A stretch of DNA of 64,000 nucleotides from NCBI GenBank assembly GCA_964394085.1, contig CAYMWF010000020.1, forward strand, positions 11,615 to 75,614, read 5' to 3'. The notes under the pieces were generated by a model. The model made no database searches, was not told where the DNA came from, and saw only the letters and a program-made list of their open reading frames with translations. This document shows positions 5,599 to 38,919 of the stretch, one piece after another; positions within the stretch are counted from its first letter, which is position 1; every line of letters begins with the position of its first letter. The stretch comes from an uncultured Gemmatimonadota bacterium (GTDB taxonomy: Bacteria; GCA-2686955; CAYMWF01). The translations under genes were made by a program, and so were the position numbers.

Positions 5599-8500
5599 AT
5601 GCAATCAGTAACGAAAATCACGAAAAGGAACGGACAAATGAAACAGGCGATTGTTATTCTCTTTCTACTGACCCTTACGGCGGAAAGCTCCCACGCGGCG
5701 ACCATTCGCGTCCCCTCCGAACAGCCGACCATCCAGGCGGGAATCGACGCGTCCGTAGACGGCGACACGGTGCTCGTGGCCGACGGTACTTACTCCGGTA
5801 CTGGCAACAGAGAAATCGACTACCTTGGCAAAACTGTAACCGTCACGTCAGAGAACGGGGCCGATTATTCGATTATCGACTGTGAAAAGAACGGCAGGGG
5901 ATTCAATTTCGTCAGCGGTGAGGATTCCTTCTCAAAGCTGGAAGGATTCACAATCACGAACGGATGCCCTCCCGATCACGGCGGCGGGATCTATCTTTAC
6001 GAATCCTCGCCGGATATAGCCGATTGCATCATATCCGGAAATATCGGTTCAGGTTATTCCGGCAGCGGCGGCGGGATATACTGCCGGTCATCTTCACCAG
6101 ATATTTCTCATTGCCGAATAATCGATAATATTGCACTCGGAGCGATCAGTGACGGCGGCGGGATCAAATGTTACGATTCATCTTCCCCGGCGATTGCATA
6201 CTGCATTATTTCCGGAAATACCGTCGGCGATGACGGCGGCGGGATTTCCTCCGGTTTCTCATCACCGGAACTTTTCAATTGTAACATTACCGGGAATATC
6301 TCTGACAATCGCGGCGGTGGGATCTATCTGTATAAATCCCCATCAGATATCACGGGATGCATTATTTCGGAGAATACGTCTTCGAATCAGGGCGGTGGGA
6401 TATATATCGAGAATTCTTCCCCATCGATGACTGATTGTTTTGTACAATTAAATTCCTCGAATAACGAAGGAGGGGGGATCTTCTGCAACTGGTTCTCCTG
6501 CTTGACTCTCACGAACAATTTAATAACAGATAATTCAACGAGGGTCGGCGGCGGAGTTTATTGCGAGGACTCATCCTTGTATTTTACCAATTGCACTTTA
6601 TCCAGAAATTCTGCTTCAAACGGCGGCGGAATATATTGCCTGGAGTCCAACCTGACCATCGTAAATTCCATACTCTGGGACGATGCACACGAAGAGTTGA
6701 TCGTTGACTCCGGAACTCCTTTGATAACTTATTCCACCATCCAGGGCGGCTGGGAGGGTGAAGGCAATATCGATGAGGATCCCATGTTCACAGCACCACA
6801 GGAGGGCGACTTTCACTTGCTGCCAGACTCTCCAAGCATCGATTCGGGAGACCCTTTTTCAAGACTGGATCTAGATAGCACCATCAATGATATGGGCTGT
6901 TACGGAGGGATGGGTGATCTGCCTGAGGGGGTTATCGGAGGATCGGTATCCGGTAAGCTGTCCAAATCTGGATCCCCTTATATTATTTCGGAGAACCTGG
7001 TGATTGAATCCGACAGTACTCTCATTGTGGAAAAGGGTGTAGAGCTTCTTCTGCACAACCATGGTGGCATCACCGTGTATGGGGAATTGCTCGCGGAAGG
7101 AGCCCCCGATGATTCGATAACCATAAAAAGATATCGGGACTGGGACATTGGCGCAGGGATTCGTTTCGACGGAGGAAGTGGAACACTTGTCTATTGCACG
7201 ATCAAGCACTGTCGCAACAGATTCGCGGGTGCGATCTATTGTCGCAGGGCTTCGCCAACTGTGTCGGATTGCTTCATATCAGAGAATACGGCTGACAGGT
7301 ACGGTGGAGGGCTCTATTGCTTCGATTCTTCCGATCCGTCAATTCGAAACTGCCGTATCACAGGAAATACAAGTGCTTTCGGCGGCGGGATCTATCTTTA
7401 CGAATCCTCGCCGGATATAGCCGATTGCATCATATCCGGAAATATCGCTACCATGAATGGAGGCGGGATCTATTGCTACAAAGGCGACTCCCCGGTCATC
7501 TCGCACTGCGAAATATCAGGGAATCAGACTTCCGACTCCGACGGAGACGGCGGAGGAATCTACTGCTATCGCTCCTCCCCGACCTTTATGAACTGCATCA
7601 TTACCGGGAATAAAACCAGGGGATTTTACGACTGCGATGGCGGCGGAATCTATTGCGATGACTCCTGCCCGGAATTATCAGGCTGCACAATTTCGGAAAA
7701 CACCGCTGGAGAAGGAGGAGGAATATATTGCAAAAACGACTCCTCACCGGTTATCACCGAGTGCGTGATTATCGGGAATCTGGTCGTTGATGATGGAGGT
7801 GGGCTCTTTTGTATAGAGTCCTCCCCGATTATCACGAGCTGCGATATAATCGGGAACATCACTACAAGCTGGGCAAGCGGCGGCGGTGGAATCTATTGCG
7901 GAAATTCCTCTCCGTATATAACGGGCTGCAGTATAACCGGAAATTCAGCCGAGGACTACGGCGGTGGGTTCTATTGTAACTATTATTCATCACCATTCAT
8001 AGTCGACTGCACAATAGATGGGAATTCGGCCGGTGACTTCGGCGGCGGACTCCGATGCTACGACTCTTCCTCCCCGACCATTATAAATTGCAGTTTAAGC
8101 GGGAATACAGCCGGTTATCACGGTGGAGGGCTTTATATCTATGGTTCATCGCCGATAATCACCAACTGCATATTCTGGGGAGATTCACCTGAAGAAATAT
8201 ATGTTTATTCGGGAAACCCGGTCGTCGCTTTTTCAGACATCCAAGACGGCTGGCCAGGAGAAGGCAATCTCGATACCGATCCTTTCTTCGTAAAGAGGGA
8301 ATGGGGAGACTACAGAATATGCTGGGATTCGCCCTGTATAGACTCCGGTCATCCCGATTCTCTCGATCCCGACGGAACGAGAATTGATATGGGCGCTCAT
8401 TACTTCGATCAGGCCAAAGAGCTACTCGTCTATCTTTCACCCGAAACCTGCGAAATCGCTCCAGGCATCCATGGTTCGGTCTGCTATACCGTTTGCAATT

Positions 8501-8766
8501 CCAAGCCTTTTGAAATCAGTTTCGGCACCGCCGCAGTCATACGCCTTCCAGACGGTTCTCCCTGGGCAGGCAACCCGCTGGAGGAAGCGACTTACGCCTC
8601 GATCGCGCCATCCAGCAATATCAGTTGCGAATTCATTTATCAGGTGCCACCCGGATGGCTCTCCGGAACCTACTCCTTCGCGACCGGCGTCGGATCCGGC
8701 AGCCGGATCTTCGATCTCGACCACTTCGAATTTACCGTTGTCAAAGGTAGCGGGGACACCGAATAA
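5599..8766 (+). CDS. Secreted right-handed parallel beta-helix repeat protein (two beta-helix modules, paralog family member 1); a better start is probably MKQAIV at 5638
   Basis: Signal peptide then AATIRVPSEQPTIQAGIDASVDGDTVLVADGTYSG. Dozens of GGGIYC-type beta-helix rungs. Module 1 ends IDMGCYGG, module 2 ends IDMGAHYF. The C-terminal ~120 aa are homologous to the C-terminus of the 13461..15266 product. An exact internal 67-bp direct repeat lies at 5980-6046 and 7381-7447. Confidence 0.8.
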   Translation: MQSVTKITKRNGQMKQAIVILFLLTLTAESSHAATIRVPSEQPTIQAGIDASVDGDTVLVADGTYSGTGNREIDYLGKTVTVTSENGADYSIIDCEKNGRGFNFVSGEDSFSKLEGFTITNGCPPDHGGGIYLYESSPDIADCIISGNIGSGYSGSGGGIYCRSSSPDISHCRIIDNIALGAISDGGGIKCYDSSSPAIAYCIISGNTVGDDGGGISSGFSSPELFNCNITGNISDNRGGGIYLYKSPSDITGCIISENTSSNQGGGIYIENSSPSMTDCFVQLNSSNNEGGGIFCNWFSCLTLTNNLITDNSTRVGGGVYCEDSSLYFTNCTLSRNSASNGGGIYCLESNLTIVNSILWDDAHEELIVDSGTPLITYSTIQGGWEGEGNIDEDPMFTAPQEGDFHLLPDSPSIDSGDPFSRLDLDSTINDMGCYGGMGDLPEGVIGGSVSGKLSKSGSPYIISENLVIESDSTLIVEKGVELLLHNHGGITVYGELLAEGAPDDSITIKRYRDWDIGAGIRFDGGSGTLVYCTIKHCRNRFAGAIYCRRASPTVSDCFISENTADRYGGGLYCFDSSDPSIRNCRITGNTSAFGGGIYLYESSPDIADCIISGNIATMNGGGIYCYKGDSPVISHCEISGNQTSDSDGDGGGIYCYRSSPTFMNCIITGNKTRGFYDCDGGGIYCDDSCPELSGCTISENTAGEGGGIYCKNDSSPVITECVIIGNLVVDDGGGLFCIESSPIITSCDIIGNITTSWASGGGGIYCGNSSPYITGCSITGNSAEDYGGGFYCNYYSSPFIVDCTIDGNSAGDFGGGLRCYDSSSPTIINCSLSGNTAGYHGGGLYIYGSSPIITNCIFWGDSPEEIYVYSGNPVVAFSDIQDGWPGEGNLDTDPFFVKREWGDYRICWDSPCIDSGHPDSLDPDGTRIDMGAHYFDQAKELLVYLSPETCEIAPGIHGSVCYTVCNSKPFEISFGTAAVIRLPDGSPWAGNPLEEATYASIAPSSNISCEFIYQVPPGWLSGTYSFATGVGSGSRIFDLDHFEFTVVKGSGDTE

Positions 8767-8785
8767 CCTTGTTGCCTGAATCCAC

Positions 8786-8812
8786 GAGATTTTTCCTTAC
8801 GTGAAGACAGAC
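8786..8812. promoter_or_regulatory. Degenerate ACGTG-core motif (TTTTCCTTACGTGAAGACAG) immediately downstream of beta-helix gene
   Basis: Variant of the recurring motif. A similar half-site TTTTCCTCACGTCAGATCG follows the paralog at 15291-15310. Confidence 0.35.
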
Positions 8813-8986
8813 TCTTCCGATGGTGGGGATCCGGCACGGTTCCCGGTCAGATAGCCGAGAAGGCTGCTTCCCCGGGTTCGCCCGATCCCGGTAACCGGCT
8901 GCCGGATCATGTCGCACCGTTAAATCCCGATTGGAGATATCCAAGAGAAGATTCGGGTCTCTCGCGGCGGCATCCGGCCGGATCCC

Positions 8987-9433
8987 GTGTATATAACCTA
9001 TTTTTTGACAAATAACGACGGACCGGATACATTTCTTTACATGGATGCGAGAACTTTCAGGATAATAAACAGGCTTTTATGGGATTACACCATATCGCCG
9101 GAGGATGTTTACGAAGTTATCCAGGGAAGGAAAGCTTCCTGCGCGCATTGGGATTTCGATACTATATTCCTCAGAATGCTGGAAAGACTCGGCTGGTACG
9201 ACTTGCTGCACGTTCCGGGAGCAGATAAGATCAAATCGAGCTTGACACCTGAAATCATCGAAAAAATTTACCTGCCGGAGCGCCGAAAACATTATGAGCG
9301 GTTACGAAAAATATTACACGGAGAGTCTGTATCCTTTACAAAATGGGGTCCTGAGTTCAGTAAAAAAATCCGGAACTCCCTTTTTTCTAACAGGTGGTAC
9401 AGCACCGGACCGCTCACGGACGATATCCTGTAA
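8987..9433 (+). CDS. Hypothetical protein (low-GC ORF)
   Basis: 148-aa ORF with noticeably lower GC than the flanks. No recognisable motif. Confidence 0.3.
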   Translation: MYITYFLTNNDGPDTFLYMDARTFRIINRLLWDYTISPEDVYEVIQGRKASCAHWDFDTIFLRMLERLGWYDLLHVPGADKIKSSLTPEIIEKIYLPERRKHYERLRKILHGESVSFTKWGPEFSKKIRNSLFSNRWYSTGPLTDDIL

Positions 9434-9476
9434 GGGTTGAAGAACTCCTGTTTTTCGCCGCAATGACGGCCCTCCG

Positions 9477-13334: not shown

Positions 13335-13352
13335 TTCCCCGCGTGGAGAAAA
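13335..13352. promoter_or_regulatory. Degenerate copy of TTTCTCCACGTGGAGAAA motif (TTTTCCCCGCGTGGAGAAAAT)
   Basis: About 110 bp upstream of the beta-helix gene at 13461. Confidence 0.45.
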
Positions 13353-13460: not shown

Positions 13461-15266
13461 GTGGCACGCAACATCACCAGTATCCTATCGATGACCTGCC
13501 TTTTATTTCTTCTTTTCATTTCAGAGGCGCTTGCCGCAACTATCCGTGTGCCTTCCGAGCAGCCGACGATCCAGGCGGGCATCGACGCCTCCGTGGATGG
13601 AGACACGGTGCTCGTCGCAGGCGGCACATACACGGGCGCCGGAAATAAAAATCTCGACTACTGCGGCAAAGCTGTTACCGTTTTGTCGGAAAACGGACCG
13701 GCCGGTACAATCCTAGACTGCGAAAACGACGGCAGGGGGTTTTATTTCGGCAATGGTGAAGATTCTTCATCCAGGCTGGAGGGATTCACTATCCGCAACG
13801 GGAACGTGGACGACGACGGAGGCGCGATCCTGTGTTACGACTCTTCTCCGGCCGTCGCGGATTGTATCATCTCCTCGAATACGGCCTCCGGCTGGTATTC
13901 CGCCGGGGGCGGAGTATATTGTTTCTCCTCACCGTCCGCTGTTTTTACAGGCTGCACCATAACGGGGAATTCGGCTGAGTATAAGGGAGGCGGGATCTGC
14001 TGCCAGGCCTGGTCCTTTCCGATCATTACCGATTGCACGATCTCGGGAAATTCAGCCGGTGATTACGGAGGCGGCATCCAGTGCGACGACTCCTCCCCGG
14101 AAGTGACGAACTGCATCATCATCGACAATACCGGCAGTCGCAGCGGAGGAGGGATCTATTGCTGGAATTCCTCACCGGCCTTCTCGGGTTGTTCGATTTC
14201 GGGGAATGCGGCGGATGCTCAACAGGGTGACGGCGGGGGCGTGTATTGCGGAGGCGGCTCCTCCCCTGCCGTCTCGCACTGCACGATTTCGGAGAATACG
14301 GCTCTATCCGACGGCGGAGGGGTCTACTGCACCGGTTCTTCCCCGATCATCGGGAACACCACCATATCCGGGAATGAAGCCGGCTTTTACGGCGGCGGGG
14401 TCTACGGCTCCGACACGGATCTCGAGATAACCGGCAGCGTAATCAGAGGCAATTCGGCCGAGGAGGGCGGCGGGATCCACTGCCGCTGGTATTCCCGTCC
14501 GACCATGACGAACGTCGTTATCGCCGGTAATGCGGCCGGCATCGGCGGCGGGGTCTACAGCGTGGACTCCGATCCGGTATTGACGAACTGCACGGTAACA
14601 GGAAACACATCCGCTCTGAACGGGGGCGGTTTCTTCTGCGACGATTCCTCCTATCCGGTCATGATAAGCTGCATATTCTGGAACGATTCACCCGAAGAGA
14701 TACATGTTCGCGCGGGAAAACCGAGCGTCATATTTTCGGACGTCCAGGGGGGATGGTCCGGTCCCGGCAATATCGACGCCGACCCCTTTTTCGTTATGGA
14801 AGAGTGGGGGGATCAGCGGCTTTGCTGGGGATCTCCCTGCATCGACACGGGGAAATCCGGTTCGGTCGATCCGGACGGAACGAGAATCGACATGGGCGCA
14901 AACTATTTCGACCAGTCCAGGGAGCTCATCGTCTATCTCTCGCCCGAAACCGATGAAATCGCATCCGGCGATTCCGGCTCCGTCCGTTACACCGTATGCA
15001 ACTCGAAGCTTTACGAAATCAGCTTCGGCGCCGCTGCGGCCATCCGGCAACCGAGCGGCGCTCCCTGGCCCGGCAACCCGCTTGAGGAACCGCTTTTCAT
15101 GTCGATAGCGCCATCCGGCAACGAAACCCGCGATTTCGCGTACCTGGTGCCGCCCGGCTGGGTCCCCGGAACCTACTCCTTCGCCGCGGGAGTCGGTTAC
15201 GGCGGACGGATCTACGACCTCGACCACTTCGAATTCACAGTGGTCGACAATGATGGCGGCGAATAA
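13461..15266 (+). CDS. Secreted right-handed parallel beta-helix repeat protein (paralog 2) with conserved C-terminal ~120-aa domain
   Basis: GTG start. Signal peptide then AATIRVPSEQPTIQAGIDASVDGDTVLVAGGTYTG, beta-helix rungs, IDMGANYF, then a C-terminal domain homologous to the end of the 5599..8766 product (...GTYSFAAGVGYGGRIYDLDHFEFTVV). Confidence 0.8.
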   Translation: MARNITSILSMTCLLFLLFISEALAATIRVPSEQPTIQAGIDASVDGDTVLVAGGTYTGAGNKNLDYCGKAVTVLSENGPAGTILDCENDGRGFYFGNGEDSSSRLEGFTIRNGNVDDDGGAILCYDSSPAVADCIISSNTASGWYSAGGGVYCFSSPSAVFTGCTITGNSAEYKGGGICCQAWSFPIITDCTISGNSAGDYGGGIQCDDSSPEVTNCIIIDNTGSRSGGGIYCWNSSPAFSGCSISGNAADAQQGDGGGVYCGGGSSPAVSHCTISENTALSDGGGVYCTGSSPIIGNTTISGNEAGFYGGGVYGSDTDLEITGSVIRGNSAEEGGGIHCRWYSRPTMTNVVIAGNAAGIGGGVYSVDSDPVLTNCTVTGNTSALNGGGFFCDDSSYPVMISCIFWNDSPEEIHVRAGKPSVIFSDVQGGWSGPGNIDADPFFVMEEWGDQRLCWGSPCIDTGKSGSVDPDGTRIDMGANYFDQSRELIVYLSPETDEIASGDSGSVRYTVCNSKLYEISFGAAAAIRQPSGAPWPGNPLEEPLFMSIAPSGNETRDFAYLVPPGWVPGTYSFAAGVGYGGRIYDLDHFEFTVVDNDGGE

Positions 15267-21312: not shown

Positions 21313-22824
21313 ATGAGAAACAGAACGGAAAAACGAGGCGAAGAAGGAAGGATACAGAAAGGGCGCCGGCGTTTCGAGCCGGGGGCAGGAACCAAAGCAG
21401 TGCGCTGCGCCGCAGCGGTATTCGCACTTTTCACACTCGTGTCGAGCGCGTCGGCCGCTTACACGATATCGTTCGATGAACAGTGGACACCAACCGGTTC
21501 TCCGTACGAATTCACCGAGCATGTCGTAGTCGAGGAAGGCGCGACGCTGACGATTACCCCTGGCACGGTCGTCCGCTTCGGCCGCTCCAATCCCGACCGG
21601 CGCGGCGAAACACCCGGCTGCCGGCTCATGGTGCGGGGCACTCTCGTGGCGGCGGGATCGCCGGGCGCGCCGGTTATTTTCGAAGGGCTGGACGGCGAGA
21701 CGGACGATTGGGGCGGTATCCTGTTCACCGACACCTCCGGGGATGCACGCTTCGACGGGAAGGGTCGGTACCTGGGCGGTTCGGTCATTGCGTATGCCGC
21801 CATCAGGCACGCCGGAAACTCGGCCGTCTTCGCTGAACACGCGTCACCCTACCTCCACGAGGTTCTGTTCGAAGGGAACGAGGCCCTTTACGACAAGGGC
21901 GAGGAGATCGTAGTGGATCCGAGCCAGCTGCCGGACGAGCGGATCATGGGCGGCGCGGTATACTTCTACCGGCCCGACAGCCCGGTCGGCGTGGTGCGGT
22001 GCTCGTTTTCGGGCAACGCCTCCGCCCACGTGGGCGGCGCCCTCGCCCTGGTCGAGAGCTACGGACTGCCCGCTTACGTGGTCGGCTGCAGCTTCAACGG
22101 GAACGCTACCGGCGCCAAGGGAGGCGGCGCGGTGCGGCTCCTCGGAGCATCGCCGCGGTTCATCGACTGCATATTCGACGTGAACGATGCCGAACGGGGC
22201 GGCGCGATCCACGCCTCCTACGACGCGAACTTGACCCTCTCCGGCTGCACCTTCACGGCGAACCGGGCGGCCCGCATGGGCGGCGCCCTCTTCATCGCGC
22301 ACGAGTCGCACGCGGCGGTTACGGACTGCACATTCGAAGACAACGAGGTGGATGCCGGGTCCGACATGGGCGGCGGCGCCATCAGCATCCACTCTAACGG
22401 ATCCGCGGAGCTCGAAGCATGCTCCTTCACCGGGAACATCGCCCCCGAGGCGGGCGCCCTGCTCCTCACCCACAAGAAGATGCTCGATTCCTTTCCCGTG
22501 CGCGCGGCGTGCTGCAGCTTCTCCGGAAACATCGCCCTCACCGAGGGAGCGCCCCACGCCATCGAGGCGATTGACTGGAACCACATCGAGATCGAGGAGT
22601 GCACCTTTGCGAACGCCGCGGGGAGCGGTATCGAGGTGCTCGTCGGCGTCGGCGTCTTCGAGGAACGCACCGACCACGCCGCCGACTTCAGCGGCAACTA
22701 CTGGGAGTTCGGATCCTCGGAAGACCTGGTCGCCACGGTCTCCTGGGAGCAAGGCCTCGACGAACCCGAGATAATCACAGGTGACAACCTCGGCGAACCC
22801 GCCGCCTGCGCGGCCGGAGTTTGA
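21313..22824 (+). CDS. Secreted right-handed parallel beta-helix repeat protein (paralog 3, different N-terminal cap)
   Basis: Signal peptide AVFALFTLVSSASA, then PYEFTEHVVVEEGATLTITPGTVVRF and repeated GGA-containing rungs. The start codon is uncertain. Confidence 0.65.
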   Translation: MRNRTEKRGEEGRIQKGRRRFEPGAGTKAVRCAAAVFALFTLVSSASAAYTISFDEQWTPTGSPYEFTEHVVVEEGATLTITPGTVVRFGRSNPDRRGETPGCRLMVRGTLVAAGSPGAPVIFEGLDGETDDWGGILFTDTSGDARFDGKGRYLGGSVIAYAAIRHAGNSAVFAEHASPYLHEVLFEGNEALYDKGEEIVVDPSQLPDERIMGGAVYFYRPDSPVGVVRCSFSGNASAHVGGALALVESYGLPAYVVGCSFNGNATGAKGGGAVRLLGASPRFIDCIFDVNDAERGGAIHASYDANLTLSGCTFTANRAARMGGALFIAHESHAAVTDCTFEDNEVDAGSDMGGGAISIHSNGSAELEACSFTGNIAPEAGALLLTHKKMLDSFPVRAACCSFSGNIALTEGAPHAIEAIDWNHIEIEECTFANAAGSGIEVLVGVGVFEERTDHAADFSGNYWEFGSSEDLVATVSWEQGLDEPEIITGDNLGEPAACAAGV

Positions 22825-22863: not shown

Positions 22864-23016
22864 AGATTTTCTTCACGCGAAGAATCGGCTTCAGAGACGC
22901 CCGGAAATCCGGGGCCGCCGGAACCGGGAAATCGAACCCGGATTTTCTCCACGTGGGGAAGCGGCGGCGGAGACGGCGGGAAATCTGAGTCGGGATTTTC
23001 TTCATGTGAAGAATCA
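22864..23016. repeat. Three spaced copies of the TTCTYCA-CGTG-GAAGAA palindromic motif (22867-22885, 22945-22962, 22997-23015)
   Basis: Direct reading. They lie between two beta-helix genes. The ORF 22828..23121 covering them is judged spurious. Confidence 0.6.
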
Positions 23017-23150: not shown

Positions 23151-24503
23151 ATGTCTCCTAAAAACACTCAGCCTGTTGCCGCGATCTGTTTCACACTTAT
23201 TCTTTCATCATCAATGTTGTTCGCCGCAACCATCCGCTTACCCTCGGAGGAACCGACCATTCAAGCCGGTATCGACGCCTCGGTAGATGGTGACACGGTG
23301 CTCGTGGCCGACGGAATGTACACCGGCTACGGAAACAAGAACCTCGAATACGGGGGCAAGGCGATAACCGTTGTTTCAGAGAACGGACCTGAATACACCG
23401 TCATCGACTGCGAAAACAGTGGCAGGGGATTTTACTTCAGCAATTATGAAGGCCAAAACTCCAGGTTGGGTGGATTCACAATCCGAAACGGCCGGGTCGA
23501 TGGCGACGGCGGTGGAATCTATTGCTACGCCGCTTCCCCAACCATGACGGACTGCACCATAACCAACTGTAGTACTCAAGGTTTATATGTGAAAGAGGGT
23601 GGTGGGATTTCCTGCAAATCCTGGTCCTCCCCCACCATCGTGAACTGCGCAATATCCCAGAATTACGCCAACTGGGCCGGCGGCGGGATTTCTTGCCGTA
23701 GCGAATCCTCCCCCACCATTGTGAACTGCCCGATCACAGGGAACGTGGGCGCAGCTGGCGGCGGCGGGATCTCTTGCAATAGTGAATCCTCCCCCACCAT
23801 CACAAACTGTACGATTTCTGGGAATAGGGCTGAGTCCCTTGGCGGCGGGATCGATTGCCTTAACAGATCCTCCCCCACCATCTTGAACTGCATCATAACC
23901 GGGAATGTGGCCGATTTCTATGGCCACGCATTAGGCGGCGGAATCCATTGCAGCTCCTCAACGACCATCTTGAACTGCATCATAACCGGGAATGTGGTCG
24001 ATGAATGGGGCGGCGGAATCTACTGCAGCTCCTCAACGACCATCTTGAACTGCATCATAGCCGGGAATATGGCCGATGAAGGGGGCGGCGGTATCTATTG
24101 CAGCTCCTCAACGACCATCTTGAACTGCACCATAACAGGGAATGTTGTCGGCTCCCCTTTCCGTGGTGGAGGAATATATGGCTCCCCCACGGTTAAGAAT
24201 TGCATTCTCTGGGATGATTCTCCCGACGAAATCTATGGATCTCCTACCATCATCTATTCTGATATTCAGGGAGGTTGGCCCGGAGAAGGTAATATTGATG
24301 ATGATCCAATTTTCACACTCAAATCCTGGTTCGGATTCGATTATGGCCTGCGGACCGATTCACCATGCATCGACGCCGGCGATCCCGCCATTGAAGACGA
24401 GATATATGACTGGCATCCATTCTGCCCGGATTGGTATGTCAACGGAGTCCGTTCCGACATGGGAGCGTACGGCGGGCCGGGGAATATCGACTGGTTAAGG
24501 TAA
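23151..24503 (+). CDS. Secreted right-handed parallel beta-helix repeat protein (paralog 4)
   Basis: Signal peptide then AATIRLPSEEPTIQAGIDASVDGDTVLVADGMYTGYGNKNLEY. Rungs of the GGGISC/GGGIYC type. C-terminal VRSDMGAYGGPGNIDW. Confidence 0.8.
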   Translation: MSPKNTQPVAAICFTLILSSSMLFAATIRLPSEEPTIQAGIDASVDGDTVLVADGMYTGYGNKNLEYGGKAITVVSENGPEYTVIDCENSGRGFYFSNYEGQNSRLGGFTIRNGRVDGDGGGIYCYAASPTMTDCTITNCSTQGLYVKEGGGISCKSWSSPTIVNCAISQNYANWAGGGISCRSESSPTIVNCPITGNVGAAGGGGISCNSESSPTITNCTISGNRAESLGGGIDCLNRSSPTILNCIITGNVADFYGHALGGGIHCSSSTTILNCIITGNVVDEWGGGIYCSSSTTILNCIIAGNMADEGGGGIYCSSSTTILNCTITGNVVGSPFRGGGIYGSPTVKNCILWDDSPDEIYGSPTIIYSDIQGGWPGEGNIDDDPIFTLKSWFGFDYGLRTDSPCIDAGDPAIEDEIYDWHPFCPDWYVNGVRSDMGAYGGPGNIDWLR

Positions 24504-29313: not shown

Positions 29314-29331
29314 TTTCTTCACGTGGAGAAA
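29314..29331. promoter_or_regulatory. TTTCTTCACGTGGAGAAA (one mismatch to the perfect palindrome)
   Basis: Between the 3' end of the minus-strand beta-helix gene (29493) and the MarR start (29190). Confidence 0.5.
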
Positions 29332-29492: not shown

Positions 29493-30863
29493 CTAACGAG
29501 GCATTTTCCGGCAGTCGATCCCCTGCCGGAATTCGTATGCGCCCATGTCGATGACGCATCCCCCTCCCCCGGGGGCATCGAAGTCGGGGTTGCCCGCGTC
29601 TATGCATGGAGAATCCTGGGACAGCCGGTAATCGCCGTTATCCGGATCGATAAAAAGAGGATTCTCGTCGATATTCCCATCGAGCCAGTTGATGGTGACA
29701 TTTCCGTGGGTGACGATTCCCGCATCTCCGAACTGAATATCTGAGTAGGAAACTGTAAGCGAGCTGTAAACGTTGTAGATGGAGAAGTAGATCTCCTCGG
29801 GCAGTCCATTCCAGAATATGGTGTTCTCCAGGCGGGGGTGAGAGTCGTAACAGTACATGGCGCTGCCCCAGAATCCCGCGGTATTTCCGCTCGCCGTCAC
29901 GTTGACGAGGGTGGGGTTCGAGCGGTTCCCGCAGGAGATCGCGCCGGCCGAGGTGTAGGCGGTGTTATCCAGGATCGCGACGTTCACGAGCTCCGGGCTG
30001 CAGTCTTCGACGAAATCGAAGCCGCCGCCGTAGTCAGCGGCATTCCCGCGTACCATCACGTTGTAAAAGGAGGGATTGGAGTAGAATTTGCAGAAAACTC
30101 CTCCACCGTGGACGCTGGCCTCGTTACCGGAAATGTCCACATTCGTGAGGACCGCGTTCGAGCCGTACCAGCAGCTGAGCCCGCCTCCCGAGCCGCTGCT
30201 GTTCCCGGTCATCGTCACATTCTCGAGGATGGGGCTCGACGCATTGCAGCCGATGGCGCCGCCCGAGCCGGAAGCCGCGTTCCCGGAAAACTCTACATTC
30301 GTTATCGTCGGATCGGAGTCGTCGCAGTACATCCCGCCGCCGCTTCCGTAAATGGACCGGTTGCTGCTGATAAGCGTGTTCCCGAGGCTCGGGTTGGAAT
30401 ATAATGAACAGTAAATTCCGCCTCCCACGGTAGCCTCGTTCCCCTTGATGAACAGGTATTCCAGGCTGGGGTCGGAGCCCGCGCAGACAATCCCCCCGCC
30501 GAAAAAAGCATTGCCTCCGTTGGCAACGGTCAATCCCTTGAGAACCGCGTCGGGACCTTCCCCGTTCTCGAAGGTCGCCACGGTTCCGCTGCTGTCGCCG
30601 TCGATCACCGTTCGGGGAATGTAATAAGGATCTCCCGTGGTCAGGAATAACGATCCGACCGTTATGTCCTTTCCGTTGAAGTTGATATTCTCGACGTAAG
30701 TATCGGGCTGAACAAGAACCGTATCACCGGTCGCCGCGGCATCAATCCCGGCTTGAATCGTCGGCTGGTCCGCAGGAACGTGAATCGCAGCCGCGAAAAC
30801 GCCGCTTGCGGCTGCAAGCGCGGCTGTTAAAACCAGGCAGTTTCTAAAGTAAGTCATCGGCAC
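29493..30863 (-). CDS. Secreted right-handed parallel beta-helix repeat protein (paralog 5)
   Basis: Signal peptide then AAIHVPADQPTIQAGIDAAATGDTVLVQPDTYVENINF, beta-helix rungs, C-terminal IDMGAYEFRQG. Confidence 0.8.
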   Translation of the reverse strand: MPMTYFRNCLVLTAALAAASGVFAAAIHVPADQPTIQAGIDAAATGDTVLVQPDTYVENINFNGKDITVGSLFLTTGDPYYIPRTVIDGDSSGTVATFENGEGPDAVLKGLTVANGGNAFFGGGIVCAGSDPSLEYLFIKGNEATVGGGIYCSLYSNPSLGNTLISSNRSIYGSGGGMYCDDSDPTITNVEFSGNAASGSGGAIGCNASSPILENVTMTGNSSGSGGGLSCWYGSNAVLTNVDISGNEASVHGGGVFCKFYSNPSFYNVMVRGNAADYGGGFDFVEDCSPELVNVAILDNTAYTSAGAISCGNRSNPTLVNVTASGNTAGFWGSAMYCYDSHPRLENTIFWNGLPEEIYFSIYNVYSSLTVSYSDIQFGDAGIVTHGNVTINWLDGNIDENPLFIDPDNGDYRLSQDSPCIDAGNPDFDAPGGGGCVIDMGAYEFRQGIDCRKMPR

Positions 30864-34267: not shown

Positions 34268-34517
34268 TTTTTCGGCCAGGTGATTCCGATTCTCATGGTG
34301 ACTTTTCGGCAAGATAGTCAGGCTTACCGTGGCAAATTTTTCGGCTGGATAGTTCCGCTTCTCGTGTTGAATCTTTCGGCCAGGTGATTCCGCTTCTCGC
34401 GGTGCATCTTTAGGCCAGGTAATACCCCTTGATCCATCCCGTTGCGAGGTCCGTCGATTCAAAAAATATTTCGCCGATTGTATATTTTCCTGCAAGCCGA
34501 TACTCTCGACCCTGAAC

Positions 34518-35417
34518 ATGGCACGCGGGAGCCGGATTATGGCGAAAATATGTCTCATCCACTGGAAAGATACGGAGATCGGGGAAAGGGCGGTTCGCCT
34601 GGAGCACGCCGGGCACGAGGTCATGCCCCATTCGGATACGGGCGGTATCGCGGCGCTTCGGGCTCTCCGGGACGAGCCGCCCGACGCCTTCGTCATCGAT
34701 CTCGGCAGGCTCCCTTCCCACGGGCGCGATGTCGCCGTGTGGCTGAGGCGGCAGAAGCCGACCCGCCACGTGCCGCTCGTCTTCATCGAGGGCGATCCGG
34801 CCAAAACGGATCGTTTGCGGAAGCTCCTGCCCGACGCGGCGTATACTGACTGGGCCGGGATTGGGAAAACTCTCGAGGATGCGATTGCGAATCCCCCGTC
34901 GAATCCGGTGACGCCCGGCACGATGGACAGCTATGCTTCCACTCCCCTCCCGAAAAAACTGGGCATCCGGGCGGGTGCCTGCGTTAAACTCATCAATGCG
35001 CCCCAGGGGTTCGAGGAATCGCTCGGGGAGCTGCCGGAAGGTGCTTCTTTCACCAGGGAGGAGGAACCGGGTGGAACCTCGCTCGCCGGGGCTGAGGAGC
35101 CGGGAGGGACTTGGCTCGCCGGGGATAAGGAACCGGATGGAGCCTCACTCACAGGGAAAGACGAGTCCCGCCCCGATTTGATTCTGTGGTTCGTCGCTTC
35201 CCGGCGGGAGCTCGAACGGAATATCGTCGCCGTCGGCGCCGGATCGGGTAAGGGCGGCGTCTGGATTGCCTGGCCGAAGAAGGCGTCAGGGGTCCCTTCA
35301 GATTTGACACAGCAGGTCGTCCGTGAAACAGGGCTCGCGTCAGGCCTGGTGGACTACAAGATCTGCTCGGTGGATGAAACCTGGTCCGCCCTGCGATTCG
35401 CCAGGCGGAAGCGATAA
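34518..35417 (+). CDS. Hypothetical protein: receiver-like N-terminal domain, central 3x 10-aa tandem repeat, conserved C-terminal domain
   Basis: CheY-like pattern (DAFVIDLGRLPSHGRDVAVWLRR...VPLVFIEGD). A 30-bp x3 in-frame repeat encodes EEPGGTSLAG/EEPGGTWLAG/KEPDGASLTG (about 35062-35158). Confidence 0.4.
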   Translation: MARGSRIMAKICLIHWKDTEIGERAVRLEHAGHEVMPHSDTGGIAALRALRDEPPDAFVIDLGRLPSHGRDVAVWLRRQKPTRHVPLVFIEGDPAKTDRLRKLLPDAAYTDWAGIGKTLEDAIANPPSNPVTPGTMDSYASTPLPKKLGIRAGACVKLINAPQGFEESLGELPEGASFTREEEPGGTSLAGAEEPGGTWLAGDKEPDGASLTGKDESRPDLILWFVASRRELERNIVAVGAGSGKGGVWIAWPKKASGVPSDLTQQVVRETGLASGLVDYKICSVDETWSALRFARRKR

Positions 35418-35505
35418 ACGCCTGCGATTCGCCAGGCGGAAGCGATAACCTTCCTGAACGCCAACGGAACACGGCGACGGCGGCCGCAGACCGGAGGAAA
35501 GTCTC

Positions 35506-36910: not shown

Positions 36911-37201
36911 ATGGTAAAAAAGTTACGACGGAAGAACAGCCCAGAGGAGAAAGTTTCGATTTTACGGAAGCATCTTCCGGGAGGAGTGCCGGTATCGGAT
37001 CTGTGTGATGAACATGGCCCTCATCAGAATGTGTTTTATCGATGGCAGAAGGCGTTTTTCGAACGCGGAGCCATGGGCTTTGATCACCGCACCCGAACAG
37101 AACATCGAAGGAGGAACGATCCCTTGTATGTACCGGGCGCTACGAGCACCGTGTCTCCATCCACGGCCGTTTCGACGGCGGGACGTATCGCGTTGAAATA
37201 A
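36911..37201 (+). mobile_element. IS3-family transposase OrfA-like fragment (HTH_Tnp_1), truncated
   Basis: NSPEEKVSILRKHLPGGVPVSDLCDEHGPHQNVFYRWQKAFFERGAMGF matches the IS3/IS911 OrfA pattern (SPEFK..AV.....G.SV.ELCRE.GIS..TFYRW.K....G..G). No OrfB or inverted repeats are seen, so it is likely a remnant. Confidence 0.55.
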
Positions 37202-37275
37202 TCTGTGTTTTCATTCCAACGAAACCCGCCCGCAAGGACGCCGTCCAGCGGAATTCCGCGGCGCGCCGCCGGGTT

Positions 37276-38919
37276 TCACTTTGTATTCGAGAGTATGACT
37301 CCCCTGTTTACGATGCGGAACCGGTCGCTCTTCGATTCATCCCCCTGGAGGGCAGAGCCCCCAAGGCTGTCGGTAAAGATGTGAGCCACCGAGTCAGGAA
37401 TGATGAATCCGGGTCGCACAGACACCAGGCCGCAATATTCCCGGGCTCCCATGTCGGGGTTTTCACCGCAATAATACTCATCCAGTCCTGCTATCTTGAT
37501 GCCGGCGTCGATGCAGGGGGAATCTCCGGGCAGCAAAAAGGCCTTGTCAACATCGGTGAGCGGATCTTCGAATATCGAGCCTGCCCCGGGAATGTACACA
37601 TCGCCATCGGCATTGTTCCAGTAGCAGTTGTGGTGGTGCGGCGTTCCGAAGCCGTACGTCAACGCCCGGCCGGAGCGTGTTTCGAGAAATATGTTGTTTA
37701 TTACACCCCCCTCGGTTCTCAAGTGAGTCACGGAACCGCCATAGACTTCACCGTATATACCAGGATATGCGCCATTGCCGAAAAAGGTATTGTTGTAGAT
37801 CCCGGCAAATGCGTCATCTCCGAAACACTCGATGCCACCGCCGGAGCCGGAATACCAGTAGGTTCCCGCACGATTGAAAAGAAAGAGGTTCCCGTATATG
37901 AGGCTGCTGCACTCCTTCGATACCTTGATCGCGCCCCCGTTCTCGGCCTCGTTGCGAATGAACAGGTTGTTCCTGATCTCCGGTGAACCGTCCCTGATCT
38001 TCAGCGCCCCGCCGCAACTGCCGCTTTCTCCCGCTTCAACATGGGGCGCTGTATTGTTCGAGAACTCGTTATTGCATACGAGAAGCCCGTCGCAGTTTGA
38101 GAGGTGGAGTGCCCCGCCTTCTCCGCCGTCGTACTCTCCCCATTCCCTTTCGCCGAATGCAACGTTTCCCGTGAAACGGCAACCAGAGATTATGCCCCTG
38201 ACATTACTGATTGATCCCCCTCCCCCTCTCTGTGCTTCATTATTACTGATTATGCAATCACGCATCACAAGATCTGAACGGTATATATTCAGCCCACCAC
38301 CAGAACTATGATTGTTAATCGAACCGATGACGTTGTTTACGATTCTACAGTCGAGTATCTTCAAAGAAGACTCATTTGCATATATACCGCCTCCCAGTAG
38401 ATAATCATGCAAATATTCGGTTCCTCCCCCATTCCGCAAAGTCAGCCCTTCAAGTATGCTCGTAGTATCTTCGCCAGACAGAAACGTTACTACGCTGCCA
38501 ACCCCTCCTCCGTCAATTACAGTTTCCTCGGCTCCAGCTACACCCTTCACCACTATCGCCTTGCCGAGAAAATCGAGATGCTCGTAGTACGTGCCTGGAT
38601 ATACCAGCACGGTGTCCCCGTCCGAAGCGTGCTCGATGCACCACTGGATGGCCGGGTTGCCCGGCTTCGAATGCCAGATGCCGTCCGGGAGACCGGTAGA
38701 ATTTGAACAATCGTTGTTCTCATTGGGGATGGAGCCGGCGAAAGCGCATGCAGGCAGGAAAACCGTGAAAAAAATTCGGAGAAGCATACTTTTAAGCCGT
38801 TTCTTCCCTTGAAGACGAATAGGTGCTACTGTTTTAAAGACGTACTTATCCATTGTTTCCTCTCCAACATTATAACCGGAATTCCACCTGCATACCTCCG
38901 TGTATTCACACCTGCTCAA
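37276..38919 (-). CDS. Secreted right-handed parallel beta-helix repeat protein (paralog 6, divergent)
   Basis: Signal peptide MLLRIFFTVFLPACAFA, then NPAIQWCIEHASDGDTVLVYPGTYYEHLDFLGKAIVVKG, GGG-rung repeats, C-terminal PDMGAREY. Confidence 0.75.
   Translation of the reverse strand: MSRCEYTEVCRWNSGYNVGEETMDKYVFKTVAPIRLQGKKRLKSMLLRIFFTVFLPACAFAGSIPNENNDCSNSTGLPDGIWHSKPGNPAIQWCIEHASDGDTVLVYPGTYYEHLDFLGKAIVVKGVAGAEETVIDGGGVGSVVTFLSGEDTTSILEGLTLRNGGGTEYLHDYLLGGGIYANESSLKILDCRIVNNVIGSINNHSSGGGLNIYRSDLVMRDCIISNNEAQRGGGGSISNVRGIISGCRFTGNVAFGEREWGEYDGGEGGALHLSNCDGLLVCNNEFSNNTAPHVEAGESGSCGGALKIRDGSPEIRNNLFIRNEAENGGAIKVSKECSSLIYGNLFLFNRAGTYWYSGSGGGIECFGDDAFAGIYNNTFFGNGAYPGIYGEVYGGSVTHLRTEGGVINNIFLETRSGRALTYGFGTPHHHNCYWNNADGDVYIPGAGSIFEDPLTDVDKAFLLPGDSPCIDAGIKIAGLDEYYCGENPDMGAREYCGLVSVRPGFIIPDSVAHIFTDSLGGSALQGDESKSDRFRIVNRGVILSNTK

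What the first reader, a model, noticed from the sequence alone, without database searches (positions are those of the whole stretch)
5599..38919. Six paralogous secreted beta-helix proteins in 34 kb, five with a near-identical mature N-terminus, two sharing a distinct C-terminal domain, and evidence of ongoing intragenic recombination
Genes 5599..8766, 13461..15266, 23151..24503, 29493..30863(-) and, more divergent, 37276..38919(-) each begin, right after a signal peptide, with A-[AT]-I-[RH]-[VL]-P-[SA]-[ED]-[QE]-P-T-I-Q-A-G-I-D-A-[SA]-x-[DT]-G-D-T-V-L-V followed by GGGIYC-type rungs. They end with an IDMGAYE/IDMGA(H/N)YF motif reminiscent of choice-of-anchor domains. 21313..22824 is a sixth beta-helix with a different cap. 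The first two also share a C-terminal extension of about 120 aa (...NPLEE..(Y/F).SIAPS.N....(F/Y)...VPPGW..GTYSFA.GVG.G.RI(F/Y)DLDHFEFTVV) that might be a sorting or export domain. Gene 5599..8766 is a fusion of two modules and carries an exact 67-bp internal direct repeat (5980-6046 = 7381-7447), implying recent gene conversion or duplication. Such dense, diversifying paralog families of secreted adhesin- or enzyme-like proteins, flanked by a shared palindromic motif, suggest a co-regulated, fast-evolving cell-surface repertoire.
Basis: partly seen in the sequence, partly recalled or inferred. Interest (0 to 1): 0.55.

Follow-up and report, generated by a model that had tools for sequence, protein, structure and literature searches.

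The report
Cluster of old secreted beta-helix paralogs
Six genes in 34 kb of an uncultured bacterium encode exported, Pmp-type beta-helix proteins of unknown function from a very large, widespread family; they are old, conserved copies, not a fast-evolving surface repertoire.

Summary
Six ORFs encode signal-peptide-bearing right-handed parallel beta-helix proteins with GGG[IV]xC...SSPxIxNC.IxGN rungs. Four share a near-identical mature N-terminus, and two share a ~120-aa C-terminal domain (CTD). Gene 1 is a two-module protein with an exact internal repeat, 68 bp rather than 67.

The family is very large (over 6,400 hits) and occurs in many phyla. Multi-gene arrays, the two-module layout, both cap motifs and the CTD all recur in unrelated genomes.

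The paralogs are old. Synonymous sites are saturated and dN/dS is 0.09-0.27. Proteins from other organisms are as close as the paralogs are to each other. Four independent assemblies are 99.98-100% identical.

The CTD is predicted to be a CARDB-like Ig sandwich. It has no Pfam model, matches 1,536 cluster representatives, and sometimes sits internally or in tandem. It is therefore unlikely to be a sorting signal. No T9SS, PEP-CTERM, LPXTG or autotransporter module was found, and choice-of-anchor Q scores stay below threshold.

Recent DNA exchange is limited to one 68-bp conversion tract and tandem rungs in gene 3.

The palindrome TTCTCCACGTGGAGAA is strongly enriched and always intergenic, but it is not specific to these genes. 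Function is unknown. A binding or adhesive envelope role is the best guess.

The parts
5599..8766 (+). g1: 1055-aa ORF (probable start ATG 5638, giving 1042 aa). Layout: signal peptide, beta-helix A, linker, beta-helix B, linker, Ig-like CTD.
   Evidence: Beta_helix 191 bits, Chlam_PMP 93 bits. AF2 model: pLDDT 84.2, helices at 22-370 and 440-870, CTD at 930-1034 (1042-aa numbering). Other gene callers give 1042 aa.
5638..5697 (+). g1 signal peptide (MKQAIVILFLLTLTAESSHA | ATIRVP)
   Evidence: Hydrophobic h-region and AxA-type site by my own heuristic. No dedicated signal-peptide predictor was available.
5698..6933 (+). g1 module A: type-1 N-cap (ATIRVPSEQPTIQAGIDASVDGDTVLV), 9 GGGx rungs, and a C-cap ending NDMGCYGG
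6934..8403 (+). g1 module B: type-2 cap (SGSPYIISENLVIESDSTLIVEKGVELLL...), 11 rungs, and a C-cap ending IDMGAHYF
   Evidence: The cap is homologous to the N-terminus of g6: blastp E 3e-23 overall and 5e-7 for the cap alone. It is also 55-62% identical to the internal caps of P0012, P0005 and P0003.
8404..8763 (+). g1 C-terminal domain (CTD), a CARDB-like beta-sandwich
   Evidence: 69% identical to the g2 CTD. All-beta with pLDDT about 80. Family profile search.
5979..6046 (+). Exact 68-bp repeat, copy 1. It covers one rung of module A (GGGIYLYESSPDIADCIISGNI).
   Evidence: (D2); flanks about 30% identical.
7380..7447 (+). Exact 68-bp repeat, copy 2 (a rung of module B)
   Evidence: Both copies are present in assemblies L040-L042.
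13461..15266 (+). g2: 601 aa (alternative start gives 591 aa). Layout: signal peptide, type-1 N-cap, 11 rungs, C-cap, linker, CTD.
   Evidence: AF2 model: pLDDT 85.6, helix 26-455, CTD 490-595.
14907..15263 (+). g2 CTD
   Evidence: Foldseek matches over about 116-119 columns to the CARDB domain 3idu (TMt 0.72-0.75, rmsd 2.7), RbmA and MG domains. No Pfam or NCBIfam hit.
21313..22824 (+). g6: 503 aa with signal peptide, type-2 cap and FxxN/GGA-type rungs. It lacks the DSPCIDAG...DMGA C-cap.
   Evidence: Chlam_PMP 54 bits, Beta_helix 52.5 bits; 9 FxxN motifs.
23151..24503 (+). g3: 450 aa with signal peptide, type-1 N-cap, 9 rungs and C-cap; no CTD
23934..24158 (+). Three tandem 75-bp rungs in g3, 92% and 83% identical to the reference copy. 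Another assembly's contig ends inside this array.
   Evidence: (D5). The 54,834-bp contig behind L040 ends at about window 23957 (coordinates). Truncated cluster members are listed.
29493..30863 (-). g4: 456 aa with signal peptide, a type-1 N-cap variant (AAAIHVPADQPTIQAGIDAAATGDTVLV), 7+ rungs, and a C-cap ending IDMGAYEF
   Evidence: family HMM E 5e-101. Best sub-threshold choice_anch_Q hit is 21.9 bits.
37276..38919 (-). g5: up to 547 aa (probable start ATG 38853). Divergent member with irregular rungs and a 55-aa C-terminal tail.
   Evidence: Beta_helix 37 bits; E 4.8e-48.
37117..37190 (-). Short relic of a type-1 N-cap (AIRPAVETAVDGDTVLVAPGTY), with no start codon or signal peptide and followed by a stop
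   Evidence: DNA match of 70 nt at 76% (I1); translation; tblastn E 8e-4. Weak evidence.
5040..5055 (.). Palindrome TTCTCCACGTGGAGAA, 544 bp upstream of the g1 ORF start. It is part of a 34-nt element that recurs at 34234-34267.
   Evidence: (D10)
13335..13350 (.). Palindrome variant TTCCCCGCGTGGAGAA, in the divergent region between TauE(-) and g2(+)
22869..23013 (.). Three palindrome variants (22869, 22945, 22998) between the g6 stop and the g3 start. They lie upstream of a sigma-70-like site at 23084-23112.
29315..29330 (.). Palindrome variant 23 bp upstream of the MarR-family gene 28747-29292(-) and 163 bp downstream of the g4 stop

Best explanation
**What it is.** The region holds six old paralogs, plus one short relic, of a very large and widespread family of Sec-exported right-handed parallel beta-helix proteins. 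Their rungs are Pmp-type: GGG[IV]xC, then SSPxIxNC, then xIxGNxA, repeating every 25-31 residues.

**Steps shown by the evidence here.**
- Each protein has an N-terminal signal peptide with an AxA-type signal-peptidase-I site.
- This is followed by a capping strand and helix: either type 1 (IxVPxxxPTIQAGIDA..DGDTVLV) or type 2 (SGSPYxxxExxxV...).
- A solenoid of 7-20 very regular rungs follows.
- In five of the six, a conserved C-cap comes next (W.DSPEEI...SDIQGGW.GEGNID.DP.F...DYRL...SPCIDAG...DMGA).
- In g1 and g2 there is then a flexible linker and a CARDB-like Ig sandwich.
- g1 strings two such helices together.
- The paralogs are ancient and under purifying selection.
- The only recent DNA-level events are a 68-bp conversion tract inside g1 and tandem rung duplication in g3. 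This is the ordinary behaviour of internally repetitive genes.

**Steps that are inferred.**
- The mature proteins are acidic (pI 4.1-4.7) and Cys-rich.
- They carry no membrane or cell-wall anchor, no autotransporter barrel and no recognisable catalytic module.
- The rungs are regular, which argues against an enzyme-like cleft, though loop geometry was not inspected.
- They therefore most likely act outside the cytoplasm as non-catalytic binding or adhesive scaffolds. The Ig-like CTD would serve as an accessory binding or spacer module. Likely targets are glycans or other polymers.
- Whether they stay in the periplasm or are released, for example by a type II system as for RbtA, is unknown.
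For: **Family identity**
- Pfam Beta_helix, Chlam_PMP and NosD score above gathering.
- NCBIfam para_beta_helix and POMP_repeat score above cut-off.
- AF2 models have pLDDT 85.6 and 84.2, with three-strand rungs throughout.
- The only solved structure found by sequence profile is the RbtA beta-helix, 9cdu, E 5e-7.

**Family size and spread**
- 6,454 of 8,000 scored candidates were significant.
- Relatives occur in Phycisphaerae, Cloacimonadota, Zixibacteria, KSB1, Marinimicrobia, Gemmatimonadota, Bacteroidota and Ignavibacteria.
- Arrays of 3-7 members are common elsewhere: L013, L017, L009, L029 and L036-39.

**Age and constraint**
- dS is 0.95 to over 2, or undefined. dN/dS is 0.09-0.27.
- 29 of 30 N-cap residues are identical between g1 and g2, while 16 of 30 third positions differ.
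- CTD identity to g2 is 70.5% for P0088, 69.6% for P0104 and 69.2% for g1. The best N-cap matches of g4 are foreign, at 69%.
- GC3 ranges from 0.55 to 0.81 among the six.
- Independent assemblies are 99.98-100% identical.

**Export and lack of an anchor**
- No T9SS, PEP-CTERM, LPXTG or autotransporter hits.

**CTD**
- Foldseek matches CARDB 3idu with TMt 0.72-0.75.
- 1,536 cluster representatives match. Most are C-terminal to Pmp-type helices, some are internal or in tandem arrays, and Pfam calls those arrays NPCBM_assoc, MG2 or CARDB.

**Published context**
- Pmp-type rungs are structural, and similar repeats were noted in Phycisphaerae (PMC10715098).
Against: - No functional evidence of any kind exists for this family, so the binding or adhesin role is inference from architecture.
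- The closest solved beta-helix folds by Foldseek include enzymes: AlgE4/AlgE6 epimerases and phage tailspike depolymerases. The matches are weak, with TM 0.26-0.31.
- The neighbourhood encodes glycoside-hydrolase-like proteins: GH39-like in the window and GH88 just upstream in L040.
- AF2 is known to over-predict confident beta-solenoids for repeats (bioRxiv 10.1101/2024.10.30.621056). Here the HMM hits and the RbtA crystal structure back the fold.
- Signal peptides were judged by eye and hydropathy only.
- The model coordinates could not be inspected for clefts or conserved surface patches.
Confidence: 0.6

Rival explanations
1. They are secreted polysaccharide-active enzymes (lyase, hydrolase or epimerase of the pectate-lyase-like superfamily). 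The CTD would act as a carbohydrate-binding or spacer module. The cluster would be part of a polymer-degradation repertoire.
For: - The best beta-helix fold matches are AlgE4/AlgE6 epimerases and tailspike depolymerases.
- Neighbouring genes encode a GH39-like protein, a DUF3604 protein, an amidohydrolase and PQQ/LVIVD beta-propellers. GH88 lies upstream.
- CARDB/NEW3-type Ig domains commonly accompany glycosidases.
Against: - No pectate-lyase, glycoside-hydrolase or polysaccharide-lyase family reached E 0.01 in Pfam or NCBIfam.
- Fold matches are weak: TM 0.26-0.31 at 12-13% identity.
- The rungs are short and uniform, with a 25-31-aa period, which argues against the long loops that build catalytic clefts in known beta-helix enzymes. 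Loops were not inspected directly.
- The most conserved positions are structural: the Gly, Asn and Cys ladders and the caps.
Confidence: 0.25
2. It proposes a co-regulated, rapidly diversifying cell-surface repertoire. Variation would come from recombination among paralogs, as in antigenic or phase-variable adhesin families.
For: - There is a 68-bp exact conversion tract in g1.
- g3 has tandem rung duplication, and an assembly breaks inside it.
- A possible relic of a lost copy exists.
- Similar short exact tracts occur in relatives. Examples are a 95-bp tract between two CTDs in L038 and tracts in L009, L015 and L003.
- An enriched palindrome lies upstream of g1, g2 and g3.
Against: - dS is saturated and dN/dS is 0.09-0.27.
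- Foreign proteins are as close as the paralogs.
- Four assemblies from different samples are virtually identical, with one SNP in g1 and none in g2.
- No invertible promoter, homopolymer tract or silent-cassette arrangement was seen.
- The palindrome also precedes hypF, MarR and other genes.
- No surface anchor was found.
Confidence: 0.07
3. They are NosD-like periplasmic maturation or metallochaperone proteins that bind copper, sulfur or another metal on the beta-helix.
For: - Pfam NosD scores above its gathering score for g1 (94.9 bits) and g2 (45.3 bits).
- The proteins are very rich in cysteine, with 11-48 Cys each.
Against: - TIGR04247 NosD_copper_fam scores at most 67 bits against a cut-off of 300.
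- No nosZ, nosF, nosY or nosL genes are nearby.
- The Pfam NosD model largely captures generic PbH1 rungs.
- Six copies and two-module forms do not fit a dedicated chaperone.
Confidence: 0.04
4. The repeats and the two-module gene are artefacts of short-read metagenome assembly, caused by chimeric joins across repetitive rungs.
For: - The genes are internally repetitive.
- One assembly ends inside the g3 tandem rungs.
Against: - Contigs from three other samples, in two source collections (ENA and JGI), reproduce window 1-18766 with at most 3 mismatches, including both 68-bp copies.
- Two-module proteins of about 1,000 aa with the same internal cap exist in unrelated assemblies.
- The reading frame is intact through 1,055 codons.
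Confidence: 0.03

Closest known systems
Chlamydial polymorphic membrane proteins (Pmps; Pfam Chlam_PMP PF02415 repeat region)
   Same: Both have a regular right-handed beta-helix whose rungs are built from a buried GG[AG][ILV] motif paired with an xxxN motif. Both form multi-paralog families. PF02415 scores above threshold in g1, g2, g3 and g6. Similar repeats outside Chlamydia, including in Phycisphaerae, have been noted (PMC10715098).
   Different: There is no autotransporter beta-barrel and no Pmp middle region. FxxN is mostly replaced by [ILV]x[GS]N, and GGA by GGG followed by Cys. These proteins also have distinct N- and C-caps and an Ig-like CTD. They come from a free-living uncultured bacterium.
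Acinetobacter baumannii Rhombotarget A (RbtA; PDB 9CDU/9CDV)
   Same: It is the only solved structure detected by sequence profile: E 5e-7, covering rungs 191-353 of the profile. It is a signal-peptide-bearing protein of about 600 aa, with an N-terminal beta-helix domain followed by a C-terminal region. It is described as a cell-surface protein, and no function is given in the passages read (PMC12643943).
   Different: The similarity is low and limited to the rungs. From my own knowledge, RbtA carries a GlyGly-CTERM/rhombosortase signal. The window proteins end in acidic, non-hydrophobic tails.
Choice-of-anchor Q domain proteins (NCBIfam NF041518)
   Same: The C-cap motif DYRL..DSPCIDAG...(I/M)DMGAYE aligns to the 58-position model in g1 module A, g2, g3 and g4.
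   Different: All scores fall below the curated cut-off: 13.6-21.9 bits against 25. No alternative C-terminal sorting signal follows the domain.
CARDB / NEW3 / MG2 Ig-like domains (E-set type)
   Same: The predicted CTD fold superposes on the CARDB domain 3idu (TMt 0.72-0.75, rmsd 2.7 A). The CTD profile also hits tandem Ig arrays that Pfam calls NPCBM_assoc, MG2 or CARDB.
   Different: The CTD itself matches no Pfam or NCBIfam model, even at E 10. It forms its own sequence family, found mostly at the extreme C-terminus of Pmp-type beta-helices.
NosD and the pectate-lyase-like beta-helix enzymes (AlgE4/AlgE6, phage tailspikes)
   Same: They share the general right-handed three-faced beta-helix with PbH1-type rungs. 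The Pfam NosD model hits g1 and g2, and there are weak Foldseek matches.
   Different: The NosD subfamily model is far below cut-off and there is no nos gene context. No catalytic family models are hit, and fold similarity is low (TM about 0.3).

Membership tests
Right-handed parallel beta-helix repeat proteins (Pfam PF13229 Beta_helix / TIGR03804 para_beta_helix) | HMM score above the curated threshold | tested here: met
   PF13229 scores 191 (g1), 111.5 (g3), 37 (g5) and 52.5 (g6) bits against 25.9. TIGR03804 scores 60.8 (g1), 58 (g2) and 27.6 (g3) bits against 19.45. g4 is placed only by the family HMM, E 5e-101.
Right-handed parallel beta-helix repeat proteins (Pfam PF13229 Beta_helix / TIGR03804 para_beta_helix) | Three-stranded rungs stacked into a solenoid | tested here: met
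   AF2 models of g2 and g1 have pLDDT above 90 over the helices, with a repeating three-strand pattern. This is a prediction, not an experimental structure.
Chlamydia-type Pmp repeat (PF02415 / TIGR01376) | Repeat HMM above threshold | tested here: met
   PF02415 scores 93.2 (g1), 59.9 (g2), 41.2 (g3) and 54.4 (g6) bits against 20.6. There is no hit in g4 or g5.
Chlamydial Pmp autotransporter family | Paired canonical FxxN and GGA(I/L/V) tetrapeptides | tested here: inconclusive
   There are 6-20 GG[GA][ILVMF] motifs per protein. FxxN counts are 0-2 in g1-g4, 5 in g5 and 9 in g6. The partner motif is usually [ILV]x[GS]N.
Chlamydial Pmp autotransporter family | C-terminal autotransporter beta-barrel and Pmp middle domain | tested here: not met
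   No such Pfam family was hit at E 0.01 in any of the six. The C-termini are a cap, an Ig-like domain or a short tail.
Choice-of-anchor Q domain proteins (NF041518) | Domain score of at least 25 bits | tested here: not met
   The best score is 21.9 bits (g4 C-cap). The others score 13.6-15.1 bits, and g1 module B, g5 and the CTD give no hit.
Type IX secretion cargo (Por_Secre_tail CTD) | C-terminal T9SS sorting domain recognised by TIGR04183 or PF18962 | tested here: not met
   There is no hit in the whole proteins at E 0.01 or in the isolated CTD at E 10. The CTD family also occurs internally and in tandem.
Type IX secretion cargo (Por_Secre_tail CTD) | Genome encodes T9SS components | not testable with these tools
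   Only the 64-kb window, plus about 4.4 kb of upstream flank in L040-L042, is available for this genome. Its taxonomy could not be resolved.
NosD (TIGR04247) | Subfamily score of at least 300 bits and nosZ/nosFY neighbours | tested here: not met
   The maximum score is 67 bits. No nos genes are in the window.
CARDB domain (PF07705) | Sequence match to the Pfam model | tested here: not met
   The CTDs of g1 and g2 give no Pfam hit at E 10.
CARDB domain (PF07705) | Ig-like beta-sandwich fold superposable on a solved CARDB domain | tested here: met
   Foldseek against 3idu_A/B gives TMt 0.72-0.75 and rmsd 2.7 A over 116 columns. This rests on a predicted model with pLDDT about 80-85.
RbtA-like GlyGly-CTERM/rhombosortase substrates | C-terminal GlyGly-CTERM transmembrane sorting signal | tested here: not met
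   The last 40 residues have a maximum 12-residue hydropathy of 0.89 or less, and the tails are acidic (...VVDNDGGE...KGSGDTE). No matching NCBIfam model was hit.

The most novel reading that the evidence does not exclude
The 16-bp palindrome TTCTCCACGTGGAGAA could be the operator of a lineage-specific regulator. A candidate is the MarR-family protein at 28747-29292(-), whose own start lies 23 bp from a copy. That regulator would co-control a set of exported proteins, including g1, g2 and g3. The palindrome is 11-fold present against 0.3 expected, always intergenic, often in arrays, and also seen once in the nearest relative. Separately, the uncatalogued CARDB-like CTD (1,536 cluster representatives, no Pfam model) could be a new retention or binding module specific to Pmp-type beta-helices. 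Together these would define a regulated extracellular beta-helix regulon in an uncultured lineage.
Probability: 0.12. Interest if true: 0.4.

Novelty: new member of a known kind. Interest (0 to 1): 0.22.

Why it matters
This family is one of the largest groups of exported proteins without a known function in uncultured sediment and anoxic-habitat bacteria. It occurs in Phycisphaerae, Zixibacteria, Cloacimonadota, KSB1 and others, and it often forms multi-gene arrays. This window adds a clean, reproducibly assembled example with a clear anatomy: two cap types, a C-cap, an Ig-like CTD and a two-module form. It also shows that such clusters can be old and conserved rather than hypervariable. It gives no new mechanism. 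The modest value lies in three things: a defined CTD family that lacks a Pfam model, a candidate operator motif, and good targets (g2, g3) for expression and glycan-binding or enzyme assays.

Tried and rejected
**Taxonomy of the source genome: not resolved**
- Exact-sequence cluster look-up gave no names.
- The best foreign HypF homologs are unnamed at 54-57% identity. Named ones, at 46-49%, are scattered over several phyla.
- The genome-contig scan found no near-identical genome; the best hit was 51%.
- A paper search for the sample and run identifiers found nothing.

**Fold libraries**
- The viral library gave only generic beta-helix and tailspike matches.

**Sub-domain profile scans**
- Pfam scans of the N-cap, C-cap and CTD at E 10 gave nothing.
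- The matching NCBIfam scan of the C-caps and the CTD gave only sub-threshold choice_anch_Q hits.

**RNA and literature**
- Rfam (gathering threshold) and tRNA scans of the window found nothing.

**Readings considered and rejected**
- T9SS CTD or another sorting signal.
- NosD.
- A true choice-of-anchor Q member.
- A recent fusion.
- An assembly chimera.
- Phage tailspike. There are no phage genes around, and the genes sit among metabolic and regulatory genes.

**Palindrome as a terminator**
- This is unlikely. Three of the seven loci are divergent promoter regions, and most copies are not followed by a T-run.

Full report

The six ORFs exist as described, and their translations are given. The mature N-termini are:
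- g1 (5599-8766) and g2 (13461-15266): AATIRVPSEQPTIQAGIDASVDGDTVLV
- g3 (23151-24503): AATIRLPSEEPTIQAGIDASVDGDTVLV
- g4 (29493-30863, minus strand): AAAIHVPADQPTIQAGIDAAATGDTVLV
- g5 (37276-38919, minus strand): only P.IQ..I..ASDGDTVLV is kept

All but g6 end their helix with a ...DSPCIDAG...DMGA motif.

g1 and g2 share a 120-aa C-terminal extension at 69% identity.

The exact repeat in g1 is 68 bp (5979-6046 = 7380-7447). Its edges are sharp, with flanks about 30% identical.

A family HMM finds exactly these six ORFs in the 64-kb window. A 24-residue N-cap relic also lies just downstream of g5 at about 37117-37190(-). The evidence for the relic is weak.

**2. What the proteins are.**

Pfam places them in Beta_helix (PF13229), Chlam_PMP (PF02415) and NosD (PF05048). 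NCBIfam places them in para_beta_helix and POMP_repeat.

The rungs repeat every 25-31 residues with the motif GGG[IV]xC..SSPxIxNCxIxGNxA. There are 6-20 rungs per protein and 11-48 cysteines.

The AlphaFold2 models give this layout:
- g2: pLDDT 85.6, beta-helix at 26-455, a disordered linker, and an all-beta domain at 490-595.
- g1: pLDDT 84.2, helix A, a low-confidence linker, helix B, another linker, and the all-beta domain.

All six have an N-terminal hydrophobic segment followed by an AxA-like site. None has a hydrophobic C-terminus. Mature pI is 4.1-4.7.

The 'different cap' of g6 is homologous to the cap that opens the second module of g1. The family therefore uses two cap types.

**3. 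The C-terminal domain.**

The CTD has no Pfam or NCBIfam match, even at E 10.

In the Foldseek search of the g2 model, the matches of about 116-119 columns are Ig-like sandwiches. They include the CARDB domain 3idu (TMt 0.72-0.75, rmsd 2.7 A), RbmA, and macroglobulin (MG) domains of alpha-2-macroglobulin and complement C3.

A profile of 11 CTDs was searched against 1.84 billion cluster representatives. It found 1,536 proteins at E <= 1e-3 and 380 at E <= 1e-10. Most carry the domain at the extreme C-terminus of 350-1000-aa Pmp-type beta-helix proteins. Some carry it internally, and some have arrays of 5-11 copies. Pfam labels those arrays NPCBM_assoc, MG2 or CARDB.

This is the behaviour of a modular Ig-like accessory domain, not of a sorting signal. 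No T9SS, PEP-CTERM, LPXTG, GlyGly-CTERM or autotransporter model is hit.

**4. How common is this?** Very common.

The g2 search returned 6,454 significant proteins among the 8,000 candidates scored. Where they are named, the name is 'right-handed parallel beta-helix repeat-containing protein'.

Related loci come from Phycisphaerae, Cloacimonadota, Zixibacteria, KSB1, Marinimicrobia, Gemmatimonadota, Bacteroidota and Ignavibacteria.

Arrays are common:
- Seven members in 19 kb and seven in 13.5 kb in two Zixibacteria.
- Three to four in the nearest relative from the same sample series.

Two-module proteins with the same internal cap exist elsewhere at 55-62% identity.

**5. Are the paralogs fast-evolving?** No.

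- Nei-Gojobori estimates give saturated synonymous divergence (dS 0.95 to over 2, or undefined). dN/dS is 0.09-0.27 in the N-cap, C-cap, rungs and CTD.
- g1 and g2 differ at 1 of 30 N-cap residues but at 16 of 30 third positions. The near-identity is therefore protein-level constraint, not recent DNA exchange.
- Foreign proteins are as close as the paralogs. For the CTD of g2, identity is 70.5% to P0088, 69.6% to P0104 and 69.2% to g1. The N-cap of g4 is closest to foreign proteins at 69%, and below 50% to its neighbours.
- GC3 varies from 0.55 to 0.81 among the six, against 0.75-0.82 for neighbouring housekeeping-type genes. This hints at different histories.
- Contigs assembled independently from other samples match window 1-18766 at 99.98-100%. 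There is one SNP in g1 and none in g2.

**6. What recent DNA-level change exists?**

- The 68-bp tract copies almost exactly one rung (GGGIYLYESSPDIADCIISGNI) between module A and module B of g1.
- g3 has three tandem 75-bp rungs, 83-92% identical to the reference copy. One other assembly ends inside this array, and truncated versions of g3 populate its protein cluster. The rung number there is the least certain part of the sequence.
- Comparable short exact tracts occur in relatives. One is a 95-bp identity between the CTD-coding ends of two paralogs in L038. Others are in L009, L015 and L003.

Sporadic short-tract conversion and rung duplication are therefore a family trait. They have not produced measurable diversification here.

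**7. The palindrome.**

TTCTCCACGTGGAGAA has 11 matches at up to 3 mismatches, against 0.3 expected, and all are intergenic. The sites are:

| Position | Context |
|---|---|
| 5040 | upstream of g1 |
| 13335 | upstream of g2, divergent with a TauE gene |
| 22869, 22945, 22998 | upstream of g3, three copies |
| 29315 | 23 bp upstream of a MarR-family gene |
| 34252 | divergent region of a 1023-aa exported protein, followed by degenerate 35-bp repeats |
| 49943, 50021, 50099 | between a GH39-like and an LVIVD-repeat gene, 78-bp tandem units |
| 55023 | upstream of hypF |

Among about 640 kb of fetched loci, the motif occurs only in this genome and once, with one mismatch, in the nearest relative. 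It is plausibly a lineage-specific operator, but it is not specific to the beta-helix genes. Co-regulation remains untested.

**8. Function and mechanism.**

Shown by the evidence:
- Export signal, beta-helix architecture, caps and an Ig-like CTD.
- Absence of anchors and of catalytic family matches.

Inferred:
- An extracytoplasmic binding or adhesive scaffold role. The Pmp-type motifs would be the buried structural core, as argued for chlamydial Pmps (PMC10715098).

The nearest solved relative by sequence is the beta-helix domain of A. baumannii RbtA. It is described as a cell-surface protein, and no function is given in the passages read (PMC12643943).

The main rival is a polysaccharide-active enzyme. 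It is supported only by weak fold similarity to AlgE4/AlgE6 and tailspikes and by glycoside-hydrolase-like neighbours.

**9. Verdict.**

This is a real and well-described cluster, but an ordinary one for this family. It is a new member of a known kind. The claims of rapid diversification, a sorting domain and a recent fusion are not supported. The claims of paralogy, secretion, a two-module structure and a recent short conversion tract are supported.

The source taxonomy stayed unresolved.

Noticed in passing
window 49953-50117, 34265-34430, 5022-5055 and 34234-34267: The palindrome sits inside larger repeated elements. One is a 78-bp tandem unit (2.1 copies, 98% matches) that carries a copy plus a GC hairpin. 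Another is a degenerate 35-bp array (4.8 copies) right after the 34252 copy. A third is a 34-nt composite element (CTGTTCAAAWATTGAACTTTCTCCACGTGGAGAA) that is 97% identical at two loci 29 kb apart.
   Followed up: partly
window 54824-54845 and 55073-55094: A second perfect 22-nt palindrome, ACTTTTGTCACGTGACAAAAAT, occurs twice 249 bp apart. The two copies bracket the 55023 copy of the first palindrome, upstream of hypF (55184-57775). Both palindromes share a CACGTG core.
   Followed up: no
window 15544-15634 / 16981-17071 and 16980-17153(-): A 91-bp direct repeat (98% identical) flanks the AAA_14/DUF4143 ATPase gene (15534-16841, minus strand). The upstream copy is the end of a 58-codon relic of a second AAA_14 gene (64% aa identity). 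This suggests a partial duplication or a displaced copy.
   Followed up: partly
window ~58054-58272 (+ frame): An 18-bp tandem repeat (12.7 copies) encodes a His/Asp-rich hexapeptide array, (E/G)DHG(T/A)H, in the + frame just downstream of hypF. It resembles histidine-rich nickel-binding stretches. It is unclear whether it is a gene. The longest ORF there is on the opposite strand.
   Followed up: no
window 24577-26589 and 38933-41182(-): Two large genes adjacent to beta-helix paralogs have atypically low GC. One is a DUF3604 protein directly after g3 (GC3 0.39). The other is a 749-aa very acidic, Tyr/Asp-rich ORF with no Pfam hit and no signal peptide, directly upstream of g5. Both may be horizontally acquired together with g3 and g5 (GC3 0.62 and 0.59).
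   Followed up: no
L038 12827-12921 = 18030-18124 (relative from the same sample series): A 95-bp exact identity lies between the CTD-coding ends of two paralogs (1038 aa and 600 aa). They belong to a three-gene tandem beta-helix operon whose genes overlap by 4 bp. It is a second example of short-tract conversion in this family.
   Followed up: partly
window 31015-34086(-): A 1023-aa protein with an N-terminal membrane or signal segment and no Pfam match. It is divergently transcribed from a region holding the palindrome and the 35-bp repeat array.
   Followed up: no
window 3266-3445 and 35390-35448: A 46-bp tandem repeat (3.4 copies, 88% matches) lies between the TPP-enzyme and aldehyde dehydrogenase genes. 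A perfect 28-bp duplication (31-bp period) lies at the 3' end of ORF 34518-35417.
   Followed up: no
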